Origin: Escherichia coli
GTDB lineage: Bacteria; Pseudomonadota; Gammaproteobacteria; Enterobacterales; Enterobacteriaceae
Assembly (NCBI RefSeq): GCF_030013595.1
Contig: NZ_CP122772.1
Length of the DNA stretch: 64,000 bases
Reading direction: 5' to 3' (one strand)
In this document: one piece after another, positions 35,657 to 44,489 of the stretch
Layout of the letters: the number at the start of each line of letters is the position of its first letter
Position numbering within the stretch: the stretch's first letter is position 1
Made by a program: the position numbers and the translations under genes
The notes under the pieces: model-generated
Told to the model about the DNA's origin: nothing
Seen by the model: the letters and a program-made list of their open reading frames with translations, nothing else
Databases searched by the model: none

Positions 35657-35773
35657 CTATCGATGAACAGAAAGAACCTGGTAGAAGGTTACATTGGTTT
35701 GCTCATAGCCCCATGATGATACAAAGATATCACCAACAGAGACAGTATCATTTTTAAAAGTTAATACTTTCAT
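35657..35773 (-). pseudogene. 5' fragment of a gene (MKVLTFKNDTVSVGDIF...) truncated by IS91 copy 2
   Basis: ATG at 35773 with GGGAGC RBS behind the duplicated promoter/operator cassette; the frame runs into the IS91 end and stops after 38 codons. Confidence 0.45.
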
Positions 35774-35774
35774 T

Positions 35775-35868
35775 TTTAGCTCCCGCCCAGCTTGGGCTCT
35801 GGATGAAAGAGAATCTGTTTCCCTTTCCTGTGTTTTATTATACCTGCATTTGCAGGTATGGCAAGTTA
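35775..35868 (-). promoter_or_regulatory. Duplicated promoter/operator cassette, copy 1, with inverted repeat atacctgca-tt-tgcaggtat (35841-35858)
   Basis: ~95-bp near-identical repeat of 36686..36782, located ~70 bp upstream of a minus-strand start codon. Confidence 0.5.
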
Positions 35869-36087
35869 TTTTTTTACCAGCCTGTAAGACGGATGCATAT
35901 TTGCTAATAACAATAAATACTGATATTCACCAATAGATAAAGAACGACTGGCCTTACCTGCACTTTCTTTCATCTGCCAGGAATTCAGTTGATAACCAAA
36001 AATATCAGCAGCTTCTTTAAGAGTAAGACCTGCCGCAACCCGCGCATTCTTTACTTCTTCAGGTGTAGGTTTATTCTGCATTTTCAT
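35866..36087 (-). CDS. HTH (XRE-like) DNA-binding protein, 73 aa; possible antitoxin/regulator
   Basis: Contains ...ARVAAGLTLKEAADIFGYQLNSWQMKE..., an HTH-like segment; overlaps the upstream 85-aa ORF by 17 bp. Confidence 0.55.
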   Translation of the reverse strand: MKMQNKPTPEEVKNARVAAGLTLKEAADIFGYQLNSWQMKESAGKASRSLSIGEYQYLLLLANMHPSYRLVKK

Positions 36088-36328
36088 CCCCTTTTGTCAG
36101 ACAATCACACAAAACCCCATTATCCAGAAGCATCAATGATGCCAGGTTGAGTTTTTCGTCCATTATCAATTTTCTTACTGTTTTCCTGCTTTTAGTTTTA
36201 TCAATCGTCTTAACATATTTTAAGGCGTGAAAAACCGTATCCCCATCTTCATCCATCGTTCTGATTACATAGGAGTAATTACCTCTGTTTTTCTTAATTA
36301 TCTTATCTTTATCCATATTATTCCTCAT
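36071..36328 (-). CDS. hypothetical 85-aa protein, co-transcribed upstream partner of the HTH protein (possible toxin)
   Basis: Overlapping gene pair with toxin-first, HTH-second arrangement as in HigB/HigA-type modules; no sequence-level assignment. Confidence 0.4.
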   Translation of the reverse strand: MRNNMDKDKIIKKNRGNYSYVIRTMDEDGDTVFHALKYVKTIDKTKSRKTVRKLIMDEKLNLASLMLLDNGVLCDCLTKGDENAE

Positions 36329-36360
36329 AACTAAAAAAGGGGCTTAATGCCCCTTTTTAT

Positions 36361-36684
36361 CTATAACACGGTATGTAACCCTGTTTCCTGTGTAAATAAA
36401 CGCGCTAACTGATCACAATAGATATTATCGAATCTTGAAATATCTTTAACTTCAACACCACGTACACGAGAAAATTTCACCTGGTACGTATCAGTAAAAT
36501 CCAGTTTAATTTTTACTAAGTTGATGCCTTTCATTGCAAAATTTGACGGCAAACGGAAAGTTAACCCACACTCACCGTTTTCATCAAAGTAAGAAAAACT
36601 TTTAGCACCAGTCATAACAATAAAACGATTACCACCAAGTTGACGTAAAATCTCTGTGGCTACAGATTTAGCATAGTTTTGCAT
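36361..36684 (-). CDS. hypothetical protein (~107 aa from ATG 36684)
   Basis: ATG preceded by GGGAGG; first gene behind promoter/operator cassette copy 2. Confidence 0.5.
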   Translation of the reverse strand: MQNYAKSVATEILRQLGGNRFIVMTGAKSFSYFDENGECGLTFRLPSNFAMKGINLVKIKLDFTDTYQVKFSRVRGVEVKDISRFDNIYCDQLARLFTQETGLHTVL

Positions 36685-36685
36685 T

Positions 36686-36782
36686 TTTAACCTCCCGCCC
36701 ACTTTGGGCTCTGGATGAAAGAGAACCTGTTTCCCTTTCTTGTGTTTTATTATACCTGCATTTGCAGGTATTGCAAATTTTT
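36686..36782 (-). promoter_or_regulatory. Duplicated promoter/operator cassette, copy 2, with inverted repeat atacctgca-tt-tgcaggtat (36753-36770)
   Basis: Near-identical to 35775..35868; inverted repeat ~70 bp upstream of the ATG at 36684. Confidence 0.5.
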
Positions 36783-36829
36783 AATGCTCTCGCTCTGACT
36801 GTAAACAGTCAATCATTTGATGATTAATC

Positions 36830-37111
36830 TTAGCGCAAATCTGCGATCTGATAGACTTCGCTGCTTTCCCTTCTTCCAACGGCAATAACGAGTAAAACGA
36901 CTTTCTCATCAATGACTTGGTATACAAGTCTGTAGCCAGATGCACGAAGTTTGATCTTATAGCGATCAGCATGACCATGTAACCGGGCTGCGGGTACGCG
37001 TGGATTTTCCAGCCGTTCTGCCAGTTTCTTTTTGAATTGTTCACGGATGGTGTGGCCGAGTTTCTGCCATTCCTTCAGTGCTCTACGGTCAAAAGCCAGT
37101 TCATAGGTCAT
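36830..37111 (-). CDS. stbE: RelE/StbE-family toxin
   Basis: 93-aa ORF (MTYELAFDRRALKEWQKL...YRLVYQVIDEKVVLLVIAVGRRE...) typical of the RelE/ParE superfamily; overlaps the upstream antitoxin. Confidence 0.8.
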   Translation of the reverse strand: MTYELAFDRRALKEWQKLGHTIREQFKKKLAERLENPRVPAARLHGHADRYKIKLRASGYRLVYQVIDEKVVLLVIAVGRRESSEVYQIADLR

Positions 37112-37352
37112 CCAGGTTAACCTTCACAATTTCCGGGTTTTTCATGCGCTCATCAGCAACAGCGTTTAACTCAGCATCTTCAGCGAGTTCCCGATAGTAG
37201 GCGTAAAGTTTTGGTGGAACGCAATAGAACGCCGGTTCGTTTCGGTTCAGGATCGCAACAGCGTCCCCTTCACCTTCAGCTACGGTTCCCATAGGATTTT
37301 TTTTCAGGTCAGTAATACTGGCCGCTGTGGTTGTCAGAATTTGATAGCTCAT
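37101..37352 (-). CDS. stbD: Phd/YefM-StbD-family antitoxin
   Basis: 83-aa ORF MSYQILTTTAASITDLKKNPMGTV... preceding and overlapping the toxin gene. Confidence 0.8.
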   Translation of the reverse strand: MSYQILTTTAASITDLKKNPMGTVAEGEGDAVAILNRNEPAFYCVPPKLYAYYRELAEDAELNAVADERMKNPEIVKVNLDDL

Positions 37353-37994
37353 AAGCCCTCCGCTTGTCTCATTGGCATAATAGCATCTTTAAAAGCACTC
37401 TTAAAAGTGCTTATGTTGAGAAAAACATCAGAACAGGTGAGATATGGCTCTTTCCGACATCGCCTTAAAACGCTCTGTAACGCGTTCTGAGCGTTTTTTC
37501 CCGTTTCGTTGTGGTCAGCTACGGTTTAACGGTTTTTAACGCCGCTCAACGCTTTTTAGCGGCCTTGTTGCTGTGATCTGTTGCCATGATCCGGATAGGA
37601 GTTCAATCTTGATCAAAATTTCCTCAAGGCAACGACTGTTTTGTAAATACCCTCTAAAACGCGCTGTATCGCATTCTGAGCGATTTTTTCGATTTCGCAT
37701 GGTTTCACCATGGTTGTATCGAACGAAGCGGCAGAAAGCGATTCAGGGCTTCTCAGTGAAAGATCCAAAAAGGATCAATCAACGGATCGTATGAGCTGAA
37801 CTCTTCTGGTTTTGAGAAAGGAGACACCGCTCGCCGCAGCCGAACGACCGAGTGTAGCGAGTTAGTGAGCGAGGAAGCGGAATAGCACAGGGATTACATT
37901 AGGCACTTACGCACAGTGGTCAAAATATGAGCATATTGTTTTTATGTGTGGTTGTCTTGGTTCAGAGTGATCTGTCCTCCGGGTTTACGCAAAG

Positions 37995-38042
37995 TTATCC
38001 ACAGGCGCTGTGAATTTTTTGTTTTGAGCAGAGTTATCCACA
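37995..38042 (+). promoter_or_regulatory. Two DnaA boxes (TTATCCACA at 37995-38003 and 38034-38042) of the iteron origin
   Basis: Exact consensus 9-mers 40 bp apart, upstream of an AT-rich GATC cluster and the iterons. Confidence 0.6.
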
Positions 38043-38084
38043 GATTTTTTGTGTTTTTTTGCTTATTAAACTTCTTGTTTTTAA

Positions 38085-38121
38085 GATCTTAAATGTAGAT
38101 CGGTAGATCTACTTTAAGATC
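38085..38121 (+). promoter_or_regulatory. AT-rich segment with four GATC (Dam) sites
   Basis: GATC at 38085, 38098, 38107 and 38118 within 40 bp; typical origin unwinding/regulatory region. Confidence 0.5.
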
Positions 38122-38213
38122 TTTAACTTACTTTAACTTATTCTGCAAACATTGTGCCAGCTTTTTTATCAATAATTTCATTAAGATAGGTGTTGTTTTT
38201 TGTCGCCTCAAAA

Positions 38214-38334
38214 TGAAAGGTGGATGGGTACGCACTGAAAGGTGGATAGGTACGCACTGTAATTTTCATGAAAGGTGGATGGCTGCGCACTGAAAGGTGG
38301 ATGGGTACGCACTGAAAGGTGGATGGGTACGCAT
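38214..38334 (+). repeat. Iteron array: five 22-bp direct repeats (tgaaaggtggatgggtacgcac) plus degenerate copies at ~38418-38441 and ~38491-38510
   Basis: Repeats at 38214, 38236, 38269, 38291 and 38313 (one 11-bp spacer); degenerate copies sit in the rep promoter region. Confidence 0.8.
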
Positions 38335-38585
38335 TTTTCTGTTTTTATTCAGATATTCGTATCTTTGTATCTTCATTTCTTTAGTTCTTTATAGTGCTCT
38401 AATTTAACGTATGACGTTAAAAGGTGGATACCTGCGCATTTCTATCATATTGAATATAAATGATAAAAATTCTTTCATGTGATCAGTGTTTTGGTGGAAA
38501 TACATAAGGTGGATAAACCACTTTACATATTTCCGCCTTTGTGGTTATGATTTCACCATCAGAACTTAAAAACCACAGGTAATGT

Positions 38586-39422
38586 ATGAACTTACTGAGC
38601 GTTACAAAGAAAACAAAAATTCGCCACAGAAATGAAATTAACAGCACATTCTCATCGTTGCCTTTGTCTGCCAGAAGAATTTTGTTTATGGCTATGGCGC
38701 AGATTGATTCACGTGAAGAGTTATCTGAGGGGGCAACCTTTCGTATTACGGCTCGGGAATATGCATTTATCGCTGATATTGATGTAACAGGTGCTTACCG
38801 GCAGTTGAAAGAGGGGGCAGAAGAACTTCAGGCCAGTGTTATTCGCATTCCTCGAAATCAACTTCTCACACCTCAGGGCAATCAAAGCTCTGGACATACG
38901 AAGAAGAGAGGTAAATTACCTTCTGATGCAGTCAGGCTTATGAACCTGACTGCGTTTTGTGATTATGTTGAAAGTGAAGGATATATTGATATTGCTTTTT
39001 CACATGTCATTGAGCCATATATCACGATGTTAAAGGATTCTTACACTACTCAGGTTTTGATATCGTCTGTAAGACTCGCTGATCAAAATTCAAATATGCT
39101 TTATCAGTTTATCAGGAAACAATACAGCAGTGGTAAAAAGACATTTTTCGACATTGAAGTAGATGTATTAAAGGATGAACTTGAATTATTCAGAATAGAT
39201 AATGGCGAAAAAGTTTACCTTTATCAGAATTTTAAGGATTTTAATAAGGTTTTTCTGCAAAAAAATATTGAAAAAATAAATCAATATACAGAGATTAATC
39301 ATCTCGAAGTTAAAATCGTTGAGAGAGTCGCAAGAAGAGCATCAAAGCTAAGGTTTTCTTATAAAATAGATAAAGAAAGTGAGGGCTTAGATATCAGAAT
39401 ACCATACGGTTTCAGAGGATAA
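38586..39422 (+). CDS. rep: Rep_3-family iteron-binding replication initiator (RepE/pi-like)
   Basis: 278-aa ORF immediately downstream of the iterons; N-terminal region resembles RepE-type initiators (LSARRILFMAMAQIDS vs RepE LSRDQKRMLYLFVDQI). Confidence 0.75.
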   Translation: MNLLSVTKKTKIRHRNEINSTFSSLPLSARRILFMAMAQIDSREELSEGATFRITAREYAFIADIDVTGAYRQLKEGAEELQASVIRIPRNQLLTPQGNQSSGHTKKRGKLPSDAVRLMNLTAFCDYVESEGYIDIAFSHVIEPYITMLKDSYTTQVLISSVRLADQNSNMLYQFIRKQYSSGKKTFFDIEVDVLKDELELFRIDNGEKVYLYQNFKDFNKVFLQKNIEKINQYTEINHLEVKIVERVARRASKLRFSYKIDKESEGLDIRIPYGFRG

Positions 39423-39461
39423 TTGCATAAACTTCGTTTTGAGATCGAAATGAGGTAGCTC

Positions 39462-39908
39462 ATGGCTCAAATCTATCAATTCCCTCAGGGGGAAGAACGT
39501 GCTAAATTCAGGAAAGAAATTGCCAGGGAGCGTAAGAAACGTTTTGCAGTGAAAACAGGGAGCACTTTTGTTAAGTGGCTTGGCTGGGGATGGTTTTATC
39601 TTCGTCTTCTTGTCGCGAGTGTTTTACATTTTATCTTTGTTTTTGTGTTAGCCATTCTTGGTGCGTTTAAATGGGCTGTATTCTGGCTGGGTGGTATTTT
39701 GTGTGTCATCACTTGGTATCATCTCGATCACCAGTTATGGACGCCACAAAATCTGACTATACCGGTGATTACGGCAACCTGGATTTTGGGACTGCTGGCT
39801 GAGCCTCTGATGGAGCTGCTCAACAAAACTATGCCTTGGCACAAGTTACTTGTTCCCGAACCTGCGGACGAAAGCACCGAGAACAGTAGCGAGATAAGCC
39901 AGCAATGA
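39462..39908 (+). CDS. hypothetical membrane protein (148 aa)
   Basis: ORF with 3-4 predicted TM helices directly downstream of rep. Confidence 0.45.
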   Translation: MAQIYQFPQGEERAKFRKEIARERKKRFAVKTGSTFVKWLGWGWFYLRLLVASVLHFIFVFVLAILGAFKWAVFWLGGILCVITWYHLDHQLWTPQNLTIPVITATWILGLLAEPLMELLNKTMPWHKLLVPEPADESTENSSEISQQ

Positions 39909-39975
39909 TGCTACTCAGCAGTTATGCCAGACCCTGCCTTTTCACTGCGATGCAGGATAGGGCAAACGCCGCAAA

Positions 39976-40401
39976 ATGACGTCTCTGACGCCATTCTGCA
40001 ACGTTTGCCCGGTGACCTACAGTCGGTTCTTGTCGGAGAATTTTATGGAATATCAGGTGAGAGAGTTTATTAACGAAAAATATACTAAGGCTGTTAATAT
40101 TTTAAAGGATAACCTTAAAGAAAACTACCATGTTTTTTATGGTGTGAGATTAATTGAGATTCTTTTTCCAGCCAGTGAGTATGGCACTGATGCTTTCTTT
40201 AAAGAGTTTGAATTAATTAACAGTGTAATACTTCCATTGGTAATCTTTGATTTAACACAACGCAAGCCAATGATGATTATCAGCTTCGATAAGATACTTG
40301 ATGCCAGTTTGTTGGAAGGAACAAATATTGTGGTTCTTGAATGTATTACCCTCGCTGATCTTCTGACAAATGATAACATTGATTTTTTATATAAAAGCTA
40401 A
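39976..40401 (+). CDS. hypothetical protein (start uncertain; possibly MEYQVREF... at ~40045), AT-rich
   Basis: ORF converging on and overlapping by 4 bp the 3' end of the 325-aa minus-strand gene. Confidence 0.4.
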   Translation: MTSLTPFCNVCPVTYSRFLSENFMEYQVREFINEKYTKAVNILKDNLKENYHVFYGVRLIEILFPASEYGTDAFFKEFELINSVILPLVIFDLTQRKPMMIISFDKILDASLLEGTNIVVLECITLADLLTNDNIDFLYKS

Positions 40402-41375
40402 GAATCTCCTTTCAGTTTAAATTTTCTGCTTGGGTCGCCAAGTGTTATTGAGTCTACTTCATGTGAGTAATGAAGTGTATGATAATGTGCTGGATTTTTC
40501 AGATAATCAGGGAGTGATATTATTTTTCCGCAGCTAATTGCAGAATGAAACCAGTTGCGGAATGTCTCGCTATTTGTTTTTAATGCATCTTTTGGAATAA
40601 ATACTAATTTTATGTTGGAAACGTAATTAACAGGTTTAAGTATGGTATGTCTGTTTTGTCCAAAGTCTTTTAAAGCATCTGTAAACTCGTATTCAGATGT
40701 ATAAATTCTAGTTTCTTTATTAAGGGTTTTGATCTGGAATATGAATGAATAGTAATTCTTATCAAGTATTTCAACAGTGCCTGGGTCTATACTCAGTTGT
40801 TTAATAACAGCTTCTCTTTTATACTCTAACCCGTCTCTGACTGATTGATATACAACCATTGCTGCATGATGTGAACCACCACTGTTTGAAGCTACATATC
40901 GGTCAAACCAAGAATAATATTTAACATTAATAGGGTTGCGTGGGGGGAAACCTTCATGCTCAATGTGCCATATATTATCTTTCCAGTCTAAAATATTTTC
41001 AGCTTTCAGATTTTCGGCAGGATACATCCCCTCTCCCCAAGAATAAAGATCTTTGAACCAACTACCATTTATTACCTTGCTCCATCCACAACCGAAACTT
41101 TTCGAGTCAGTCAGAGATTGTATTTTGTTAAAATCGAAGTCCAGAGAGTGTTTCTTATCTGTAGTTATTAAGTTGCTCAGAATTTCAGCCAGATCCTTGT
41201 CAATATATCTCAGTGAGTATTCGCTAAATATATTTTCAAGCTGCAATATGGTGTCTGCATCTGCTGTAGGTTTAAATAACTTAATATCAGCAAGATTTTT
41301 AAACGTTGCTGTGGTCAGTTTATGGTGATCTGTCAACCTGTAGAGGTCACAGATCAATTCGGTTAAATATCTCAT
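40398..41375 (-). CDS. hypothetical protein (325 aa), AT-rich, no recognisable domain
   Basis: Long uninterrupted ORF in an AT-rich block; no motif I can assign. Confidence 0.5.
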   Translation of the reverse strand: MRYLTELICDLYRLTDHHKLTTATFKNLADIKLFKPTADADTILQLENIFSEYSLRYIDKDLAEILSNLITTDKKHSLDFDFNKIQSLTDSKSFGCGWSKVINGSWFKDLYSWGEGMYPAENLKAENILDWKDNIWHIEHEGFPPRNPINVKYYSWFDRYVASNSGGSHHAAMVVYQSVRDGLEYKREAVIKQLSIDPGTVEILDKNYYSFIFQIKTLNKETRIYTSEYEFTDALKDFGQNRHTILKPVNYVSNIKLVFIPKDALKTNSETFRNWFHSAISCGKIISLPDYLKNPAHYHTLHYSHEVDSITLGDPSRKFKLKGDS

Positions 41376-41399
41376 AGATTTTCATCCATGCTTCTATGG

Positions 41400-41681
41400 T
41401 TAGAATTTTGCAGACTCAAGCAACCAGTGATTCTTTATGTTTTCATCCTGGCTGTTGTACATCGCCAGCGCCGCTTTGAGAACGGTTGTTTTGCTCTGCC
41501 CTGTTCTGATAGCTTCAGCTTCCAGTATGTCCTCAAAATGGGCTGAAAGTCTGAAGTTCATCAACTTTGGTTTACCCACTACAGGCGCTCTGGTAGCGCC
41601 GGAGATAAAACGCGCGGTTTCTGCGTTTGTTGCTGGTTGCTGAGATTCATCGATGTTCGGACGGTTTAGTTTTAAAGCCAT
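41400..41681 (-). CDS. parG: ParG-like ribbon-helix-helix centromere-binding protein
   Basis: ~93 aa from MALKLNRP...; C-terminal RHH-like segment (KLMNFRLSAHFEDILEAEAIRTGQSKTTVLKAALAMY); immediately downstream of the ParA-like ATPase. Confidence 0.6.
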   Translation of the reverse strand: MALKLNRPNIDESQQPATNAETARFISGATRAPVVGKPKLMNFRLSAHFEDILEAEAIRTGQSKTTVLKAALAMYNSQDENIKNHWLLESAKF

Positions 41682-41778
41682 GACAATTTCCCCTTGTACG
41701 GTATGCATTAATAGTAAATATCATACTATCTTTATATTATCTTTACAATGTAAATATTTATAGATGGTATTGATATTA

Positions 41779-42441
41779 CTATAAAATTCCAATTTCCTGC
41801 GCCACTAGTTCAATCTGTGCTTTCGCTGTTGAAAGGCTTGATGCCCGGCTAACGTCATGTACCCCTGCCCCTTCATTACAGGCGCTTTCATACACATCCA
41901 GCTCGGATATCCGGGTTTTAAGAGGTTGAATCCAGATGTTGTCCGAACGCAGTAATTTATCCAGATCAATGGCCGCTTTTCTGTGGCGGGGTTTCGCTGA
42001 GTTGATTCTGGTGAACAGCACCCACGGTACCAGGGCTGCGTTAGCTTTCTGAGCGATGCGGATTTTCTCTGTAACACTGGTCAGAGTTTCGCTTTCGAAA
42101 TCAGAGGACGGCTTAACCAGTGTTACCACGATATCTGATACTGTCAGGGCGCTACGGAACTCCTGGCTGTCGTGGCCGGGGCAATCGACAATGAGGACTT
42201 CACACAGCTTACTAAGTCGCTTAATTTCATTGCTGACGTTTCCGTAAGCTGCATGAACCGGGATAGTGAGTAAGCCGTTATCTGTCCGCTTTTCGTTCCA
42301 GCTCAACAGATCGTGGTTTTTATCTGTCTTGAGGATAATTACCGACTTACCTTTATTGACCAGCATTGAGCCTGTGTTAGCCACGTAGGTGCTTTTGCCT
42401 ACACCACCCTTATCTGATACGACAAGCAAGATTTTACCCAT
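41779..42441 (-). CDS. parF: ParA/ParF-family partition ATPase
   Basis: 220 aa with deviant Walker A (SDKGGVGKST) near the N-terminus. Confidence 0.85.
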   Translation of the reverse strand: MGKILLVVSDKGGVGKSTYVANTGSMLVNKGKSVIILKTDKNHDLLSWNEKRTDNGLLTIPVHAAYGNVSNEIKRLSKLCEVLIVDCPGHDSQEFRSALTVSDIVVTLVKPSSDFESETLTSVTEKIRIAQKANAALVPWVLFTRINSAKPRHRKAAIDLDKLLRSDNIWIQPLKTRISELDVYESACNEGAGVHDVSRASSLSTAKAQIELVAQEIGIL

Positions 42442-42449
42442 TTCAGAAT

Positions 42450-42700
42450 TCCTCTCTTTATGACGTAAAGATTATGTAAAGACTGTCTTATCTTTACAGT
42501 GTGTGTTGTTCGTAAAGATTATTTTGTCTTTACAGTGTCTTTATATTACACATGATTTACCATGTAAAGCACAAATAAAGATAAGCTTGTATTTATGTTA
42601 TCTTTATTATGTAAAGATTTGTGTGTATTTATAGTGGCTTTACGTGGTAAAGCTGAGACCGTCTTTACATCATCTTTATGTTGTAAATTTCTGTGTGACA
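42450..42700. repeat. Centromere-like array of TCTTTAC(A)/(T)GTAAAGA repeats upstream of parF
   Basis: More than ten copies of the heptamer in both orientations within ~250 bp between parF and the resolvase gene. Confidence 0.55.
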
Positions 42701-42803
42701 TTGTCACTTTATGGCCGGAGGTCTGTTTTCTGGTTCTTTTTGAGTGTGCCTTTCCTGTCGATCTACTTTCTGGTGCATTTTGGGTATAGTGGTGTAACCT
42801 TAT

Positions 42804-43466
42804 GTGAACCGGTTCTGTAATATGACTTCAAATGTACCAACAAGCTTTGTCCGCGCTTATCTGAGAGCTTCAACAGCAGAACAGGATGCTTCGCGTGCCC
42901 TGGAAACTATCGAGGCTTTTGCCAGGGAAAGAGGCCTGATCATTTGCAGCTACTATATTGAGAATGAATCCGGCACCCGTCTTGAGCGCCCGGAACTTTT
43001 TCGTCTTCTGAGAGATTGCCAACAAAATGACATTTTGCTTATCGAGGATGTGGACAGACTTTCCCGCCTGTCAGGGGAAGACTGGAATACGTTGAAGAAA
43101 ATGATCCGGCAGAAAGACATCCGGGTTATGGCGGTGAATGTGCCGACGACATGGATTAATTCTGGTATGAGTGAGTTTGACAGCCGGTTGTTTGCAGCCA
43201 TTAACGATATGCTGCTGGATATGCTGGCCGCAGTTGCCAGAAGGGACTATGAACAACGTCGGGAACGCCAGAAACAAGGGATAGAGAAAGCAAAGAAAGA
43301 CGGCAAATATAAAGGGCGTAAACCTAATCAAGCCAGACATGATGCAATTATCAGGTTGATAGAAAGCGGTAGCTCCTGGACACAGGTACAGAAAGTGCTA
43401 GGGTGCAGCCGTGGCACAATCAGTAATGCGCTAAAACGTAAAACCGGGCAGAAATCCAGTAAGTAG
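42804..43466 (+). CDS. Serine recombinase / resolvase (probable multimer-resolution enzyme)
   Basis: N-terminal catalytic motif (AYLRASTAEQD) and C-terminal HTH (GSSWTQVQKVLGCSRGTISNALKR); start may be the internal MTSNV... codon. Confidence 0.8.
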   Translation: MNRFCNMTSNVPTSFVRAYLRASTAEQDASRALETIEAFARERGLIICSYYIENESGTRLERPELFRLLRDCQQNDILLIEDVDRLSRLSGEDWNTLKKMIRQKDIRVMAVNVPTTWINSGMSEFDSRLFAAINDMLLDMLAAVARRDYEQRRERQKQGIEKAKKDGKYKGRKPNQARHDAIIRLIESGSSWTQVQKVLGCSRGTISNALKRKTGQKSSK

Positions 43467-43620
43467 AGGAGTAGGGGGCTAATATACCTGCAAGGCAGGA
43501 TATTAACTCAGGAGATTGGGTGTGTGGTGTTTAGTCAATGCATTTGAATATTGTAACTAAAATATGTTTTTATTAAAGGCCGGAGGTGGTTAGCCCCCGG
43601 CCTTAGTTACGTTTCCGCCA

Positions 43621-43704
43621 TCAGCCCATCAACTGGAGAAGGTAGCGAATCAGTTCAAGAAGTGAGATTAGTGCCCCCAGAACGATGATTGCTTTATCAA
43701 TCAT
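43621..43704 (-). CDS. DinQ-like small type I toxin candidate (27 aa: MIDKAIIVLGALISLLELIRYLLQLMG)
   Basis: Closely resembles my recollection of E. coli DinQ; hairpin plus T-run downstream on the minus strand; 5' leader region shared with the paralog at 30886..30981. Confidence 0.5.
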   Translation of the reverse strand: MIDKAIIVLGALISLLELIRYLLQLMG

Positions 43705-43800
43705 CCGTTTACTCCATTATATGGAGCAGACTCCCGATACTTACTCTTACACTGCCTGTCATATCGGTTGTTCTTCGGTGTTGGTTGAAGACAGTTCCAC

Positions 43801-43870
43801 TCCAGCCAGAGCCACCAACTCAGGGCTGGAAAACACAAAAAAGCCCGATTACCCGTCGGTTTTTTTTTGT
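43801..43870 (+). ncRNA. Conserved two-hairpin RNA module C
   Basis: ccagcc...ggctgg stem with the same loop core as module A (cagagccaccaactcag) and a degenerate terminator. Confidence 0.35.
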
Positions 43871-44489
43871 GCCTGTCGTTTGGCTGTACTTCCGTTTTTT
43901 CCCCTTCATTTGAGGGATTTTTCTTTCATTTTTTGTTGCAGTCAATACCGCTGATCGCGTTGGCCAACAGAACGATGCCGTTACCGGCATTATCATGAAT
44001 CCCATTTTTTCAGTAAGTTGCAGCATACAAAGTAATTAAAAAAACGTCATTTTTTGTTGATGGATGCAGTAGCGGTGGTGTGCTACGTGAAATCTGGGAA
44101 ATGCTGGCGGGTAAGTGACTCAATTTTTAATCTCCGCACCTGTTTTTTTGGACGTGCCAGCAATTATGACCTGAAGCAGAGGTGCGTCCGACAACAAAAA
44201 TTCCGATCACCAGAAAAAATTTTGGACATTTTTTCCGATAATGCATTTTTGTCCAGGGGGATATGAACTACAGGGCAGGGCGAAAAGGAAGCGGTTATCT
44301 TGATCGATAGGAATTTAAATCCCAAAAAGATTAAAAAAACACCCAAAAACGGATGTTTATTCGACACTGCCTGCGTGCCATGAGTGCACCGCCATCAATT
44401 AAATGGATCTTATCGAGTGATACTGTATATCACTGATGGTTTTTTACTCCATTCCCCTGAAAATGGACGCAACTTCCCCGATGCGGCTC

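What the first reader, a model, noticed from the sequence alone, without database searches (positions are those of the whole stretch)
37455..37700. Pair of ~45-bp direct repeats between stbDE and the iteron origin
ccttaaaacgctctgtaacgcgttctgagcgttttttcccgtttcg (37463-37508) and cctctaaaacgcgctgtatcgcattctgagcgattttttcgatttcg (37651-37697) are related direct repeats in a non-coding stretch. They could be operator sites for StbD/StbE autoregulation, incompatibility repeats, or remnants of a duplicated origin component.
Basis: seen in the sequence. Interest (0 to 1): 0.3.

Follow-up and report, generated by a model that had tools for sequence, protein, structure and literature searches.

The report
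Two conserved hairpins beside IncX origin
The two repeats are real: they are two copies of a small palindromic, terminator-like hairpin next to the replication origin of an IncX1 plasmid segment, and the same ~30-base core recurs in hundreds of unrelated phages and plasmids, so it is probably functional, but its function is untested.

Summary
Positions 37466-37508 and 37655-37697 are 36/43 identical, 189 bp apart, and unique in the window.

They are not StbDE operators. Copy 2 belongs to a conserved origin-flanking module that IncX1, IncX4 and X-like plasmids keep whatever gene lies to the left. stbDE also has its own palindrome on its promoter. The repeats are not iterons, not the oriT inverted repeat (39941-40050), not an IS end and not coding.

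Each copy is a hairpin followed by a T-run. A compensatory A:T to T:A swap separates the two copies. In a relative (L009), copy 1 sits 8 nt after the stop codon of a same-strand gene.

The core, TAAAACGC-N-CTGTAW-NNNN-TTCTRAG, is the conserved half of a ~40-bp imperfect palindrome. This palindrome also occurs, always between genes, in Arsenophonus, Citrobacter and Providencia plasmids, in lambdoid and other prophages, in jumbo phages, and in the terminal repeats of hundreds of T5-like phages. The variable 3' flank stays complementary to the conserved 5' arm (p = 2e-8).

Best reading: a bidirectional, intrinsic-terminator-like insulator cassette at a module junction (confidence about 0.45). The strict conservation of one arm and the loop is not explained by termination and points to a specific binding factor. 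There is no Rfam family, no annotation, and no assigned function in the papers searched.

The parts
37463..37508 (+). Copy 1 of the hairpin element. The 5' arm AAAACGCTC (37467-37475) pairs with GAGCGTTTT (37489-37497), followed by two more T (a run of six). An alternative inner hairpin AACGC/GCGTT has the loop GTTCTGA.
   Evidence: RNA fold -13.4 kcal/mol with a 9-bp stem. The 5' arm is complementary to the 3' flank, dG -11.1 against a shuffled mean of -3.5. In L009 the orthologous copy starts 8 nt after the stop codon of a 99-aa plus-strand gene whose last ~20 nt survive here.
37651..37697 (+). Copy 2 of the hairpin element. Inner hairpin ATCGC-ATTCTGA-GCGAT (37668-37684) followed by T6. This is the conserved, probably ancestral, copy.
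   Evidence: Flagged as terminator-like by the scan. Kept in IncX1, IncX4 and X-like plasmids. Best hit of the sequence model R1, 48.1 bits.
37509..37650 (.). Spacer between the copies. It holds AACGG/AACGC/AACGC at 37528, 37538 and 37548 (10-nt phasing) and a GCCGCT...AGCGGC hairpin. It is present only in plasmids that carry both copies.
   Evidence: AACGC 5 observed against 0.29 expected over 37455-37700.
37625..37757 (+). Conserved origin-flanking module that contains copy 2 and ends at agggcttctcagtg, a landmark shared with the R6K gamma origin. As single-stranded DNA, positions 37661-37749 can fold into one long imperfect hairpin whose right arm holds GAAGCGG (37725).
   Evidence: Alignment of 9 plasmids. 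DNA folds. R6K comparison. GAAGCGG position.
37810..37886 (+). Homologue of the ColE1/pMB1 primosome assembly site (ssiA, n'-pas). Same strand as the repeats, about 125 nt to the right of copy 2.
   Evidence: 89-96% identical to thousands of small ColE1-like plasmids. In p5217 the matching stretch lies about 110 nt downstream of the RNA II end, in the same orientation. Role of ssiA as described in PMC3167613.
37377..37412 (-). stbDE promoter-like site (TTAAGA-16-TATTAT) overlapped by the inverted repeat AAGCACT (37393-37399) / AGTGCTT (37406-37412). This is the likelier StbD/StbE operator.
   Evidence: Promoter scan. Sequence. StbE matches ParE_toxin and StbD weakly matches PhdYeFM.
37995..38441 (+). 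Iteron origin proper: DnaA boxes TTATCCACA at 37995 and 38034, a GATC cluster at 38085-38121, and six 22-bp iterons at 38216-38441. repX (pir-like) follows at 38586-39422.

Best explanation
The two repeats are two diverged copies of one small cis-element: an imperfect palindrome of about 40 bp with the general form TCTAAAACGC-N-CTGTAW-NNN-TTCTRAG-N-GCGTTTT(AGA). When transcribed, or when single-stranded, it folds into a stem-loop with an A-tract on the 5' side and a T-tract on the 3' side. That is the shape of a bidirectional intrinsic (Rho-independent) terminator.

In this IncX1 segment both copies point, T-run last, towards the iteron origin. I infer that they act as a tandem transcriptional insulator. 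They would stop transcripts arising on the accessory/toxin-antitoxin side from running into the primosome assembly site, the DnaA boxes and the iterons. More weakly, they would also stop leftward transcripts.

Copy 2 is the ancestral origin-flank copy. Copy 1 is the terminator left behind by a plus-strand gene that was deleted when stbDE came to lie here.

Because the same short sequence sits at many module junctions, it also serves as a patch of homology where modules are exchanged.

Shown: the repeat itself, the hairpin, the covariation, the T-runs, the conservation, the intergenic position, and independence from stbDE. Inferred: termination and insulation activity, and the recombination role.
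For: 1. Hairpin plus T-run on the plus strand in both copies.

2. The copies differ by a compensatory change: A15:T29 in copy 1 and T15:A29 in copy 2. The A:T form reappears in L004/L008 and the T:A form in IncX4, so the inner stem is maintained.

3. Across 36 independent flank families, the variable 3' flank is complementary to the conserved 5' arm. Mean dG is -6.6 against -3.4 kcal/mol for shuffles, 32 of 36 are better than their own shuffle mean, and Wilcoxon p = 2e-8. The register shifts by 0-2 nt and bulges occur, which fits selection on pairing rather than on the sequence of that arm.

4. In L009, copy 1 starts 8 nt after the stop codon of a same-strand 99-aa gene. L016 and the window keep only the last 20-45 nt of that gene plus the hairpin.

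5. In other replicons the element directly follows a same-strand gene. The distance is 14 nt in prophage family P. In L070, L015, L087 and L052 it overlaps the stop codon. In L101 (Klebsiella siphovirus) it begins at the minor tail gene's stop codon. In a Vibrio T5-like phage it begins about 10 nt after the gene end. In lambdoid prophages it lies between the replication genes and the next gene block.

6. It is never inside a credible gene.

7. IncX copies carry an extended T-run of 6-8, compared with the T4 the palindrome alone requires.

8. Recombination junction: L012 has a copy-1 left half joined to a copy-2/IncX4 right half. To the left of copy 2 the plasmids carry unrelated modules.
Against: In the window itself no plus-strand gene or consensus promoter lies upstream of either copy, so there is no identified transcript to terminate.

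The stems are short: 5 bp with 3 G-C pairs for the inner hairpin, and 9 bp for the outer stem of copy 1, which encloses a 13-nt loop. The fold energies of the 61-nt pieces are not better than shuffles on the plus strand (z = -0.9 and +0.8).

A plain terminator does not explain why one arm and the loop (about 26-29 nt) are nearly invariant in replicons that share nothing else. It also does not explain why there are only one or two copies per replicon.

In T5-like phages the element follows a separate strong terminator and borders a long non-coding region.

The orientation relative to local transcription is mixed.
Confidence: 0.45

Rival explanations
1. The element is a recognition site for a specific factor. 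That factor would be a host protein, or a protein of a family common in mobile elements, that binds the hairpin or palindrome through the conserved arm and loop. The terminator-like shape would then be secondary. In IncX it would mark the edge of the origin region. In T5-like phages it would mark the edge of the injection-stop region.
For: Outside the positions fixed by my search pattern, extra positions are almost invariant: GC at columns 10-11 and T at columns 14 and 16 of alignment A1, and C after TTCTRAG. The core is identical in Xanthomonas phage XaC1 and Escherichia T5-like phage EscoHU1 although their flanks are unrelated. There are one or two copies per replicon. Klebsiella phage KpGranit carries a nearly perfect 18-bp inner palindrome, CTCTAGAATCGATTCTAAG. 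The element is confined to mobile elements: there were no housekeeping chromosomal hits in 100,044 genomes. It lies close to DnaA-box clusters in IncX and in T5-like phages.
Against: A symmetric dimer on double-stranded DNA should constrain both arms equally, yet the right outer arm varies in sequence and register. No shared protein is evident among IncX plasmids, T5-like phages, lambdoid prophages and jumbo phages. By-eye comparison with the consensus sites of Tus/Ter, IHF, Fis, CRP, LexA, Cra, ArgR, RcsAB and sigma-54 gave no fit (from memory, not computed).
Confidence: 0.25
2. The hairpins are single-strand DNA signals. Together with the adjacent ColE1-type primosome assembly site, they would help prime lagging-strand or complementary-strand synthesis when the plus strand is exposed, either by a fork moving towards the iterons or after conjugative entry.
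For: Copy 2 can pair with downstream sequence into a ~90-nt hairpin (-23.5 kcal/mol with DNA parameters) whose right arm contains GAAGCGG, the hexamer-plus-one shared by n' sites (from memory). A true ssiA homologue lies about 125 nt to the right on the same strand. The segment lies between the two oriT-bearing inverted repeats of IncX plasmids. This inter-repeat stretch would be leading-region DNA if transfer starts at the relaxase-proximal oriT (inference). The genome hits lie next to DnaB, DnaC-like, Rep3 and RPA genes.
Against: The long hairpin is not maintained in L004, L010 or L012. The far arm does not covary with the A:T/T:A swap, whereas the near arm does. The element also occurs inside tail and baseplate gene clusters of double-stranded DNA phages, where single-strand priming signals are not expected. 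CTG in the loop is not conserved.
Confidence: 0.12
3. They are operator sites through which StbD/StbE autoregulate stbDE.
For: Copy 1 lies about 60-130 bp upstream of the stbDE promoter on the divergent side.
Against: Copy 2, with identical flanks, is present where stbDE is absent (IncX4 L002, L004/L008, L003, L009, L010, L011, L013). The core also occurs in phages that have no stbDE nearby. The promoter has its own palindrome. The spacing of 189 bp and the distance from the promoter are atypical for toxin-antitoxin operators (general knowledge).
Confidence: 0.03
4. They are functionless relics: decayed duplicates of an old terminator or gene end, carried along with the origin.
For: Copy 1 is degenerate in L003 and L016 and absent from IncX4. 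R6K retains only a deleted remnant yet replicates well.
Against: The core is conserved across many unrelated replicons while the flanks are not. Pairing is maintained by covariation.
Confidence: 0.1

Closest known systems
Bidirectional Rho-independent (intrinsic) terminators
   Same: An A-tract, a G+C-containing stem and a T-tract. Intergenic position, often directly after a stop codon. Pairing kept by compensatory change.
   Different: A large loop or inner arm of 13-18 nt and one stem arm are conserved in sequence across unrelated replicons. The stems are short. There are only one or two copies per replicon. Termination has not been measured.
PeSL (promoter-early stem-loop) mobile regulatory cassettes of T4-type phages (Arbiol et al. 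2010, recalled from memory, not read here)
   Same: A short conserved intergenic stem-loop shared by otherwise unrelated gene modules. It lies at module junctions where recombination appears to have taken place.
   Different: No associated promoter consensus was found (and by eye). The host range spans plasmids and many phage families rather than a single phage group.
ColE1/pMB1 ssiA (n'-pas) primosome assembly site
   Same: It lies 125 nt away on the same strand. Copy 2 can form a long single-strand DNA hairpin containing GAAGCGG.
   Different: The repeats have no detectable sequence homology to ssiA. BLAST similarity to ColE1-like plasmids is confined to 37810-37886. The similarity of the repeats to the ColE1 RNA/DNA switch region is no better than chance.
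Palindromes at the start of 'Repeat Region 3' (injection-stop region) of T5-like phages (Davison, bioRxiv 10.1101/866236)
   Same: The same core sequence sits at the boundary between the last pre-early gene and the non-coding, DnaA-box-rich region of the terminal repeat.
   Different: The paper names palindromes (palC, palD) without giving a function, and I could not map the core to a named one. The plasmid context is an iteron origin, not an injection-stop region.
Type II toxin-antitoxin operators (Phd/YefM-type antitoxin sites)
   Same: Repeated sequence near a toxin-antitoxin promoter.
   Different: The repeats do not overlap the promoter, are not associated with stbDE across plasmids, and are not short palindromes at -35/-10.

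Membership tests
Intrinsic (Rho-independent) terminator | Stable G+C-containing stem-loop | tested here: inconclusive
   Inner stem of 5 bp (3 G-C) with a 7-nt loop in both copies. Outer 9-bp stem in copy 1 (-13.4 kcal/mol). Fold energies are not better than shuffles on the plus strand. Pairing is supported by covariation.
Intrinsic (Rho-independent) terminator | U/T-tract immediately 3' of the stem | tested here: met
   T6 after both copies on the plus strand, T7-T8 in IncX4, L004 and L029, and T4 (GCGTTTTA) on the minus strand. Copy 2 is flagged by the terminator scan.
Intrinsic (Rho-independent) terminator | Lies downstream of a co-oriented transcription unit | tested here: inconclusive
   Met for the orthologue of copy 1 in L009 (8 nt after a stop codon) and in many phages. 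Not met in the window itself, where there is no plus-strand gene or consensus promoter upstream.
Intrinsic (Rho-independent) terminator | Releases transcripts in vivo or in vitro | not testable with these tools
   Needs Term-seq, 3'-RACE or reporter assays.
StbD/StbE (toxin-antitoxin) operator | Co-occurs with, and overlaps the promoter of, the toxin-antitoxin operon | tested here: not met
   Copy 2 is kept without stbDE. The promoter at 37377-37404 has its own palindrome.
Iterons / incompatibility repeats | Multiple copies of the Rep-binding 22-bp unit, helically phased | tested here: not met
   No similarity to AAAGGTGGATGGGTACGCACTG. Spacing is 189 bp. IncX4 has a single copy and R6K has none.
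IncX oriT long inverted repeat | ~110-bp inverted repeat pair near taxA/taxC and near bis/ddp3 | tested here: not met
   The inverted repeat is at L005 19834-19943 and 25388-25497, which corresponds to window 39941-40050. It is a different sequence.
PriA-dependent primosome assembly site (ssiA type) | Sequence homology to ColE1 ssiA, or demonstrated single-strand initiation activity | tested here: not met
   Homology is confined to 37810-37886. The repeats show none. Activity cannot be tested here.
ColE1-type origin (RNA II/DNA switch) | Sequence similarity to the switch region above chance | tested here: not met
   Local alignment scores of 16-26 fall within the shuffle distribution, with 151-479 of 500 shuffles scoring at least as high.
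Described RNA family (Rfam 15) | Covariance-model match | tested here: not met
   No relevant match at E <= 10 for the window element or the prophage family P element.
IS / transposon end | Terminal inverted repeat adjoining a transposase, with target duplication | tested here: not met
   The nearest IS91 copy ends near 35667. IncX1 backbone homology runs uninterrupted from 35664 to 44279.

The most novel reading that the evidence does not exclude
The repeat core defines a cis-element that does not appear to have been described. It is a ~40-bp asymmetrically conserved palindrome or hairpin shared by IncX and other enterobacterial plasmids, T5-like phages (in the terminal repeat at the edge of the injection-stop region), lambdoid and other prophages, and jumbo phages. 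On this reading, one arm and the loop are read by a specific host or mobile-element factor. The element would mark a boundary (replication, DNA entry or transcription domain) rather than merely terminate RNA.
Probability: 0.25. Interest if true: 0.7.

Novelty: new variant of a known kind. Interest (0 to 1): 0.4.

Why it matters
For the plasmid, the repeats delimit the true left edge of the IncX1/IncX4 origin module. That module comprises the hairpin, a conserved 100-nt block, a ColE1-type primosome site, the DnaA boxes and the iterons. IncX plasmids carry mcr-1, blaNDM and other resistance genes, and this stretch is unannotated in every record examined.

More broadly, the same 26-29-nt core lies at module junctions in very different mobile elements. 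These include the non-coding injection-stop region of T5-like phages, whose cis-signals have resisted analysis for decades. If the core is a terminator-type insulator, it is an example of a regulatory cassette that moves between plasmids and phages and supplies homology for modular exchange. If it binds a factor, it gives a defined, testable sequence for a boundary function common to many enterobacterial mobile elements.

Tried and rejected
1. ColE1-origin relic. The repeats resemble AAAAACGCCAGCAACGCGGCCTTTTTACGG by eye and lie at a ColE1-like distance from the primosome assembly site, but alignment scores are within the shuffle range.

2. Coding. All relevant frames on both strands were examined. 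Stop-to-stop lengths are 1-76 codons and no common start is present. tblastn of neighbouring small proteins against the IncX intergenic DNA found nothing.

3. oriT. The oriT inverted repeats lie elsewhere.

4. R6K literature link. R6K has only the remnant cttcTAAAACGCcTTCTAAGg, so the experimental work on R6K does not bear on the repeats.

5. Promoter on either strand. No consensus hit was found. The candidate -10 hexamer TAGAAT on the minus strand loses its final T in about a third of instances.

6. By-eye comparisons that did not fit (from memory, not computed): Tus/Ter, IHF, Fis, CRP, LexA, TyrR, PurR, Cra, ArgR, the RcsAB box, sigma-54, XerCD/dif, gix/hix, lox-type sites, boxA/nut (copy 1 matches CGCTCTTTAAC at 10 of 11 positions, but the position that makes this match varies), CRISPR repeats of types I-E, I-F, II-A and V-A, the tRNA-Tyr anticodon arm, and the hammerhead core.

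7. Rfam: no family.

8. Literature string search for the core found only an unrelated primer.

9. BLAST of prophage families S and P against named phages gave no annotated counterpart.

10. RefSeq annotation of the 1.2-kb intergenic region in E. coli plasmids: none.

11. The 10-nt phasing of AACGC and the three-segment antiterminator/terminator reading were noted but could not be tested further.

Full report
**1. Observation**

The repeat finder aligns 37466-37508 with 37655-37697: 43 nt, 36/43 identical, start-to-start spacing 189. A 28-nt degenerate consensus of the two copies occurs only at these two places in the 64-kb window. It occurred in none of 100 dinucleotide-preserving shuffles.

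**2. Setting**

The window is a mosaic plasmid carrying F-type tra genes, the hly operon and IS91 copies. Positions 35664-44279 are collinear with the backbone of complete IncX1 plasmids.

Around the repeats the order is:
- stbE (36830-37111, minus strand) and stbD (37101-37352, minus strand), which match ParE and, weakly, Phd/YefM.
- A promoter-like site for stbDE at 37377-37404, overlapped by its own inverted repeat AAGCACT/AGTGCTT at 37393-37412.
- Copy 1, a 142-nt spacer, then copy 2.
- A conserved block ending in agggcttctcagtg, followed by three GATC sites.
- A 77-nt stretch (37810-37886) that is 89-96% identical to the primosome assembly site downstream of the origin in thousands of small ColE1-like plasmids. 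The role of ssiA is described in PMC3167613.
- Two DnaA boxes (37995, 38034), a GATC cluster, six 22-bp iterons (38216-38441), the initiator gene repX (38586-39422), then bis and ddp3.

The oriT-bearing long inverted repeat described for IncX plasmids (PMC3402527, PMC3332091) is a different sequence. In a complete IncX1 plasmid the pair lies at 19834-19943 and 25388-25497. The second arm is at 39941-40050 in the window.

**3. The repeats belong to the origin side, not to stbDE**

Copy 2, together with its right-hand flank, is present in IncX1, IncX4 and other X-like plasmids. In these plasmids the left-hand neighbour varies: stbDE, a different RelE-family toxin-antitoxin pair, a J-domain gene, or IncI nikAB.

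Copy 1 is found only in IncX1 and in L009-type plasmids. It is degenerate in L003 and L016.

L012 carries a hybrid: the left half of copy 1 fused to an IncX4-type right half. This indicates recombination within the element.

R6K keeps only a deleted remnant, cttcTAAAACGCcTTCTAAGg. That remnant does not score with a sequence model of the element.

**4. Anatomy**

Each copy holds a 5-bp hairpin followed by a T-run. In copy 1 it is AACGC-GTTCTGA-GCGTT. In copy 2 it is ATCGC-ATTCTGA-GCGAT.

Two of the seven differences between the copies form a compensatory pair: A:T in copy 1 and T:A in copy 2. The A:T form recurs in L004/L008 and the T:A form in IncX4.

Copy 1 can also form a 9-bp outer stem, AAAACGCTC/GAGCGTTTT.

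As single-stranded DNA, copy 2 can alternatively pair with downstream sequence into a ~90-nt hairpin that contains GAAGCGG. That pairing is not maintained in several relatives.

**5. Copy 1 is a gene-end hairpin**

In L009 a 99-aa plus-strand gene ends 8 nt before copy 1. L016 retains only the last ~45 nt of that gene, and the window only ~20 nt, each followed by the hairpin. This is what a terminator left behind after deletion of its gene would look like.

**6. The core is not specific to IncX**

An exact-pattern scan for TAAAACGYNCWGWAWYNNNTTYTRAG in 100,044 genomes gave 26 loci. By my estimate, four or more chance hits are expected. About a dozen hits have unrelated flanks and come from Arsenophonus, Morganella, Providencia, Citrobacter and Phytobacter plasmids or prophages. 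Several of these lie next to DnaB, DnaC-like, Rep3 or RPA replication genes.

The same scan of viral contigs gave 52 loci. They fall into several flank families:
- After the replication genes of lambdoid prophages.
- After a baseplate gene.
- After a tail gene.

BLAST of eight concatenated variants against named phages found 681 records. Most are T5-like phages of Salmonella, Escherichia, Klebsiella, Vibrio and Pantoea. In these the element lies in the terminal repeat, just beyond the last pre-early gene. That position is the start of the non-coding region that Davison calls Repeat Region 3, the candidate injection-stop region. The element also occurs in jumbo phages RaK2 and XaC1 and in Klebsiella siphoviruses.

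It is always intergenic, and no reading frame explains it.

A sequence model built from 44 instances finds two copies per IncX1 replicon, one per IncX4 replicon, and no others in the window.

No Rfam family matches. RefSeq annotates nothing in this stretch. A literature string search found nothing relevant.

**7. Overall form**

Put together, the instances show a ~40-bp imperfect palindrome: TCTAAAACGC-N-CTGTAW-NNN-TTCTRAG-N-GCGTTTTAGA. It is nearly perfect in Klebsiella phage KpGranit.

The left arm and the inner part are conserved in sequence. The outer right arm varies in sequence and register but stays complementary to the left arm. This holds in 32 of 36 flank families, with mean duplex energy -6.6 against -3.4 kcal/mol for shuffles and Wilcoxon p = 2e-8.

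That asymmetry argues for a folded single strand (RNA or DNA) rather than a symmetric protein site on duplex DNA. The sequence conservation of one arm and the loop goes beyond what a terminator needs.

**8. Mechanism**

The best-supported reading is a bidirectional, intrinsic-terminator-like cassette. In IncX it would insulate the origin from transcription coming from the variable left-hand module. Its wide distribution at module junctions, together with the L012 hybrid, suggests it also acts as a recombination joint.

The steps that are shown are the repeat, the hairpin, the covariation, the T-runs, the gene-end position in relatives, independence from stbDE, and the distribution. Termination, insulation and the recombination role are inferred.

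Weaknesses of this reading:
- The window has no upstream plus-strand gene or promoter.
- The stems are weak.
- The conserved loop is unexplained.
- In T5-like phages a separate strong terminator already precedes the element.

Rivals are a factor-binding hairpin or palindrome (0.25), a single-strand priming signal working with the adjacent primosome site (0.12), functionless relics (0.10) and StbDE operators (0.03).

**9. Comparison with known systems, and novelty**

The element has the form of a Rho-independent terminator, but membership is only partly tested: the T-tract feature is met, the stem and the context are inconclusive, and activity is untestable here.

It is not an iteron, not the oriT repeat, not an IS end, not a ColE1 switch-region relic and not a primosome-site homologue.

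In behaviour it resembles the mobile promoter/stem-loop cassettes of T4-type phages (recalled from memory).

I rate it a new variant of a known kind. As a pair of repeats beside one plasmid origin it is of modest interest. The interest rises because the core is a conserved element shared by many plasmids and phages, and neither Rfam, the annotation nor the papers I could search assign it a function.

Noticed in passing
window 37810-37886 (+): Close homologue of the ColE1/pMB1 primosome assembly site (ssiA, n'-pas), embedded in the IncX1/IncX4 iteron-origin flank. It is 89-96% identical to thousands of small ColE1-like plasmids. R6K lacks it: after agggcttctcagtg the R6K sequence runs straight to its DnaA box.
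   Followed up: partly
window 35773-35870 and 36685-36782: A 98-nt direct repeat (91% identical) upstream of two small minus-strand genes. Each copy holds a good promoter (TTTGCA-17-TATAAT). A perfect 20-bp palindrome ATACCTGCAAATGCAGGTAT lies between and over the hexamers, followed by a shared leader. This looks like a repressor-controlled promoter used twice. IncX4 and R6K have analogous versions.
   Followed up: no
window 37393-37412: Inverted repeat AAGCACT-N6-AGTGCTT overlapping the -35 region of the stbDE promoter-like site. This is the likely StbD/StbE operator.
   Followed up: no
window 39941-40050: One arm of the IncX long inverted repeat said to carry oriT-beta, lying between bis and ddp3. 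The partner arm near taxA/taxC is absent because the IncX1 segment (35664-44279) is truncated and flanked by IS91 copies. The segment therefore has an oriT but no relaxase.
   Followed up: partly
window 37995-38012, 37762-37788 and 38085-38121: The first DnaA box overlaps a small hairpin, CACAGGCGCTGTG followed by a T-run, flagged as terminator-like. It recalls the DnaA-box hairpin 'A site' described for R6K (from memory). There are two clusters of GATC sites, with 3 and 4 sites within about 40 bp each.
   Followed up: no
window 37528-37552: AACGG/AACGC/AACGC spaced exactly 10 nt apart in the spacer, conserved in L003, L009 and L016. AACGC is 17-fold enriched over 37455-37700. This could be phased bending or a binding array.
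   Followed up: partly
L002 2690-3000 (IncX4 plasmid pGMI17-004_2): A ~330-nt G+C-rich non-coding stretch lies directly left of the single hairpin copy. It has no Rfam match and no convincing ORF. It could be a structured RNA that ends at the hairpin.
   Followed up: partly
L096 1680-2500 (Escherichia phage EscoHU1, left terminal repeat): Next to the shared core lie several other features. There is a perfect SOS-box-like palindrome, TACTGTATATTTATACAGTA. There are repeated TTATCAACA DnaA-like boxes. There are four Fur-box-like repeats (GCGAATGAtAAtGAgAaTGAtTcGCATTT). TGTCGGATTCGCACA-like units are repeated five times.
   Followed up: no
L012 1490-1560 (IncX4 plasmid pYUYZVE29-cfr): A hybrid hairpin with the copy-1 left flank and left half joined to an IncX4-type right half, which breaks the inner stem. 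This is direct evidence of recombination inside the element between an IncX1 stbDE module and an IncX4 origin.
   Followed up: partly
L066 13178-13279; L041 2603-3558: Two copies of the core in inverted orientation: 76 nt apart in one viral contig, and about 900 nt apart in a Candidatus Arsenophonus triatominarum contig, the latter with identical flanks.
   Followed up: no
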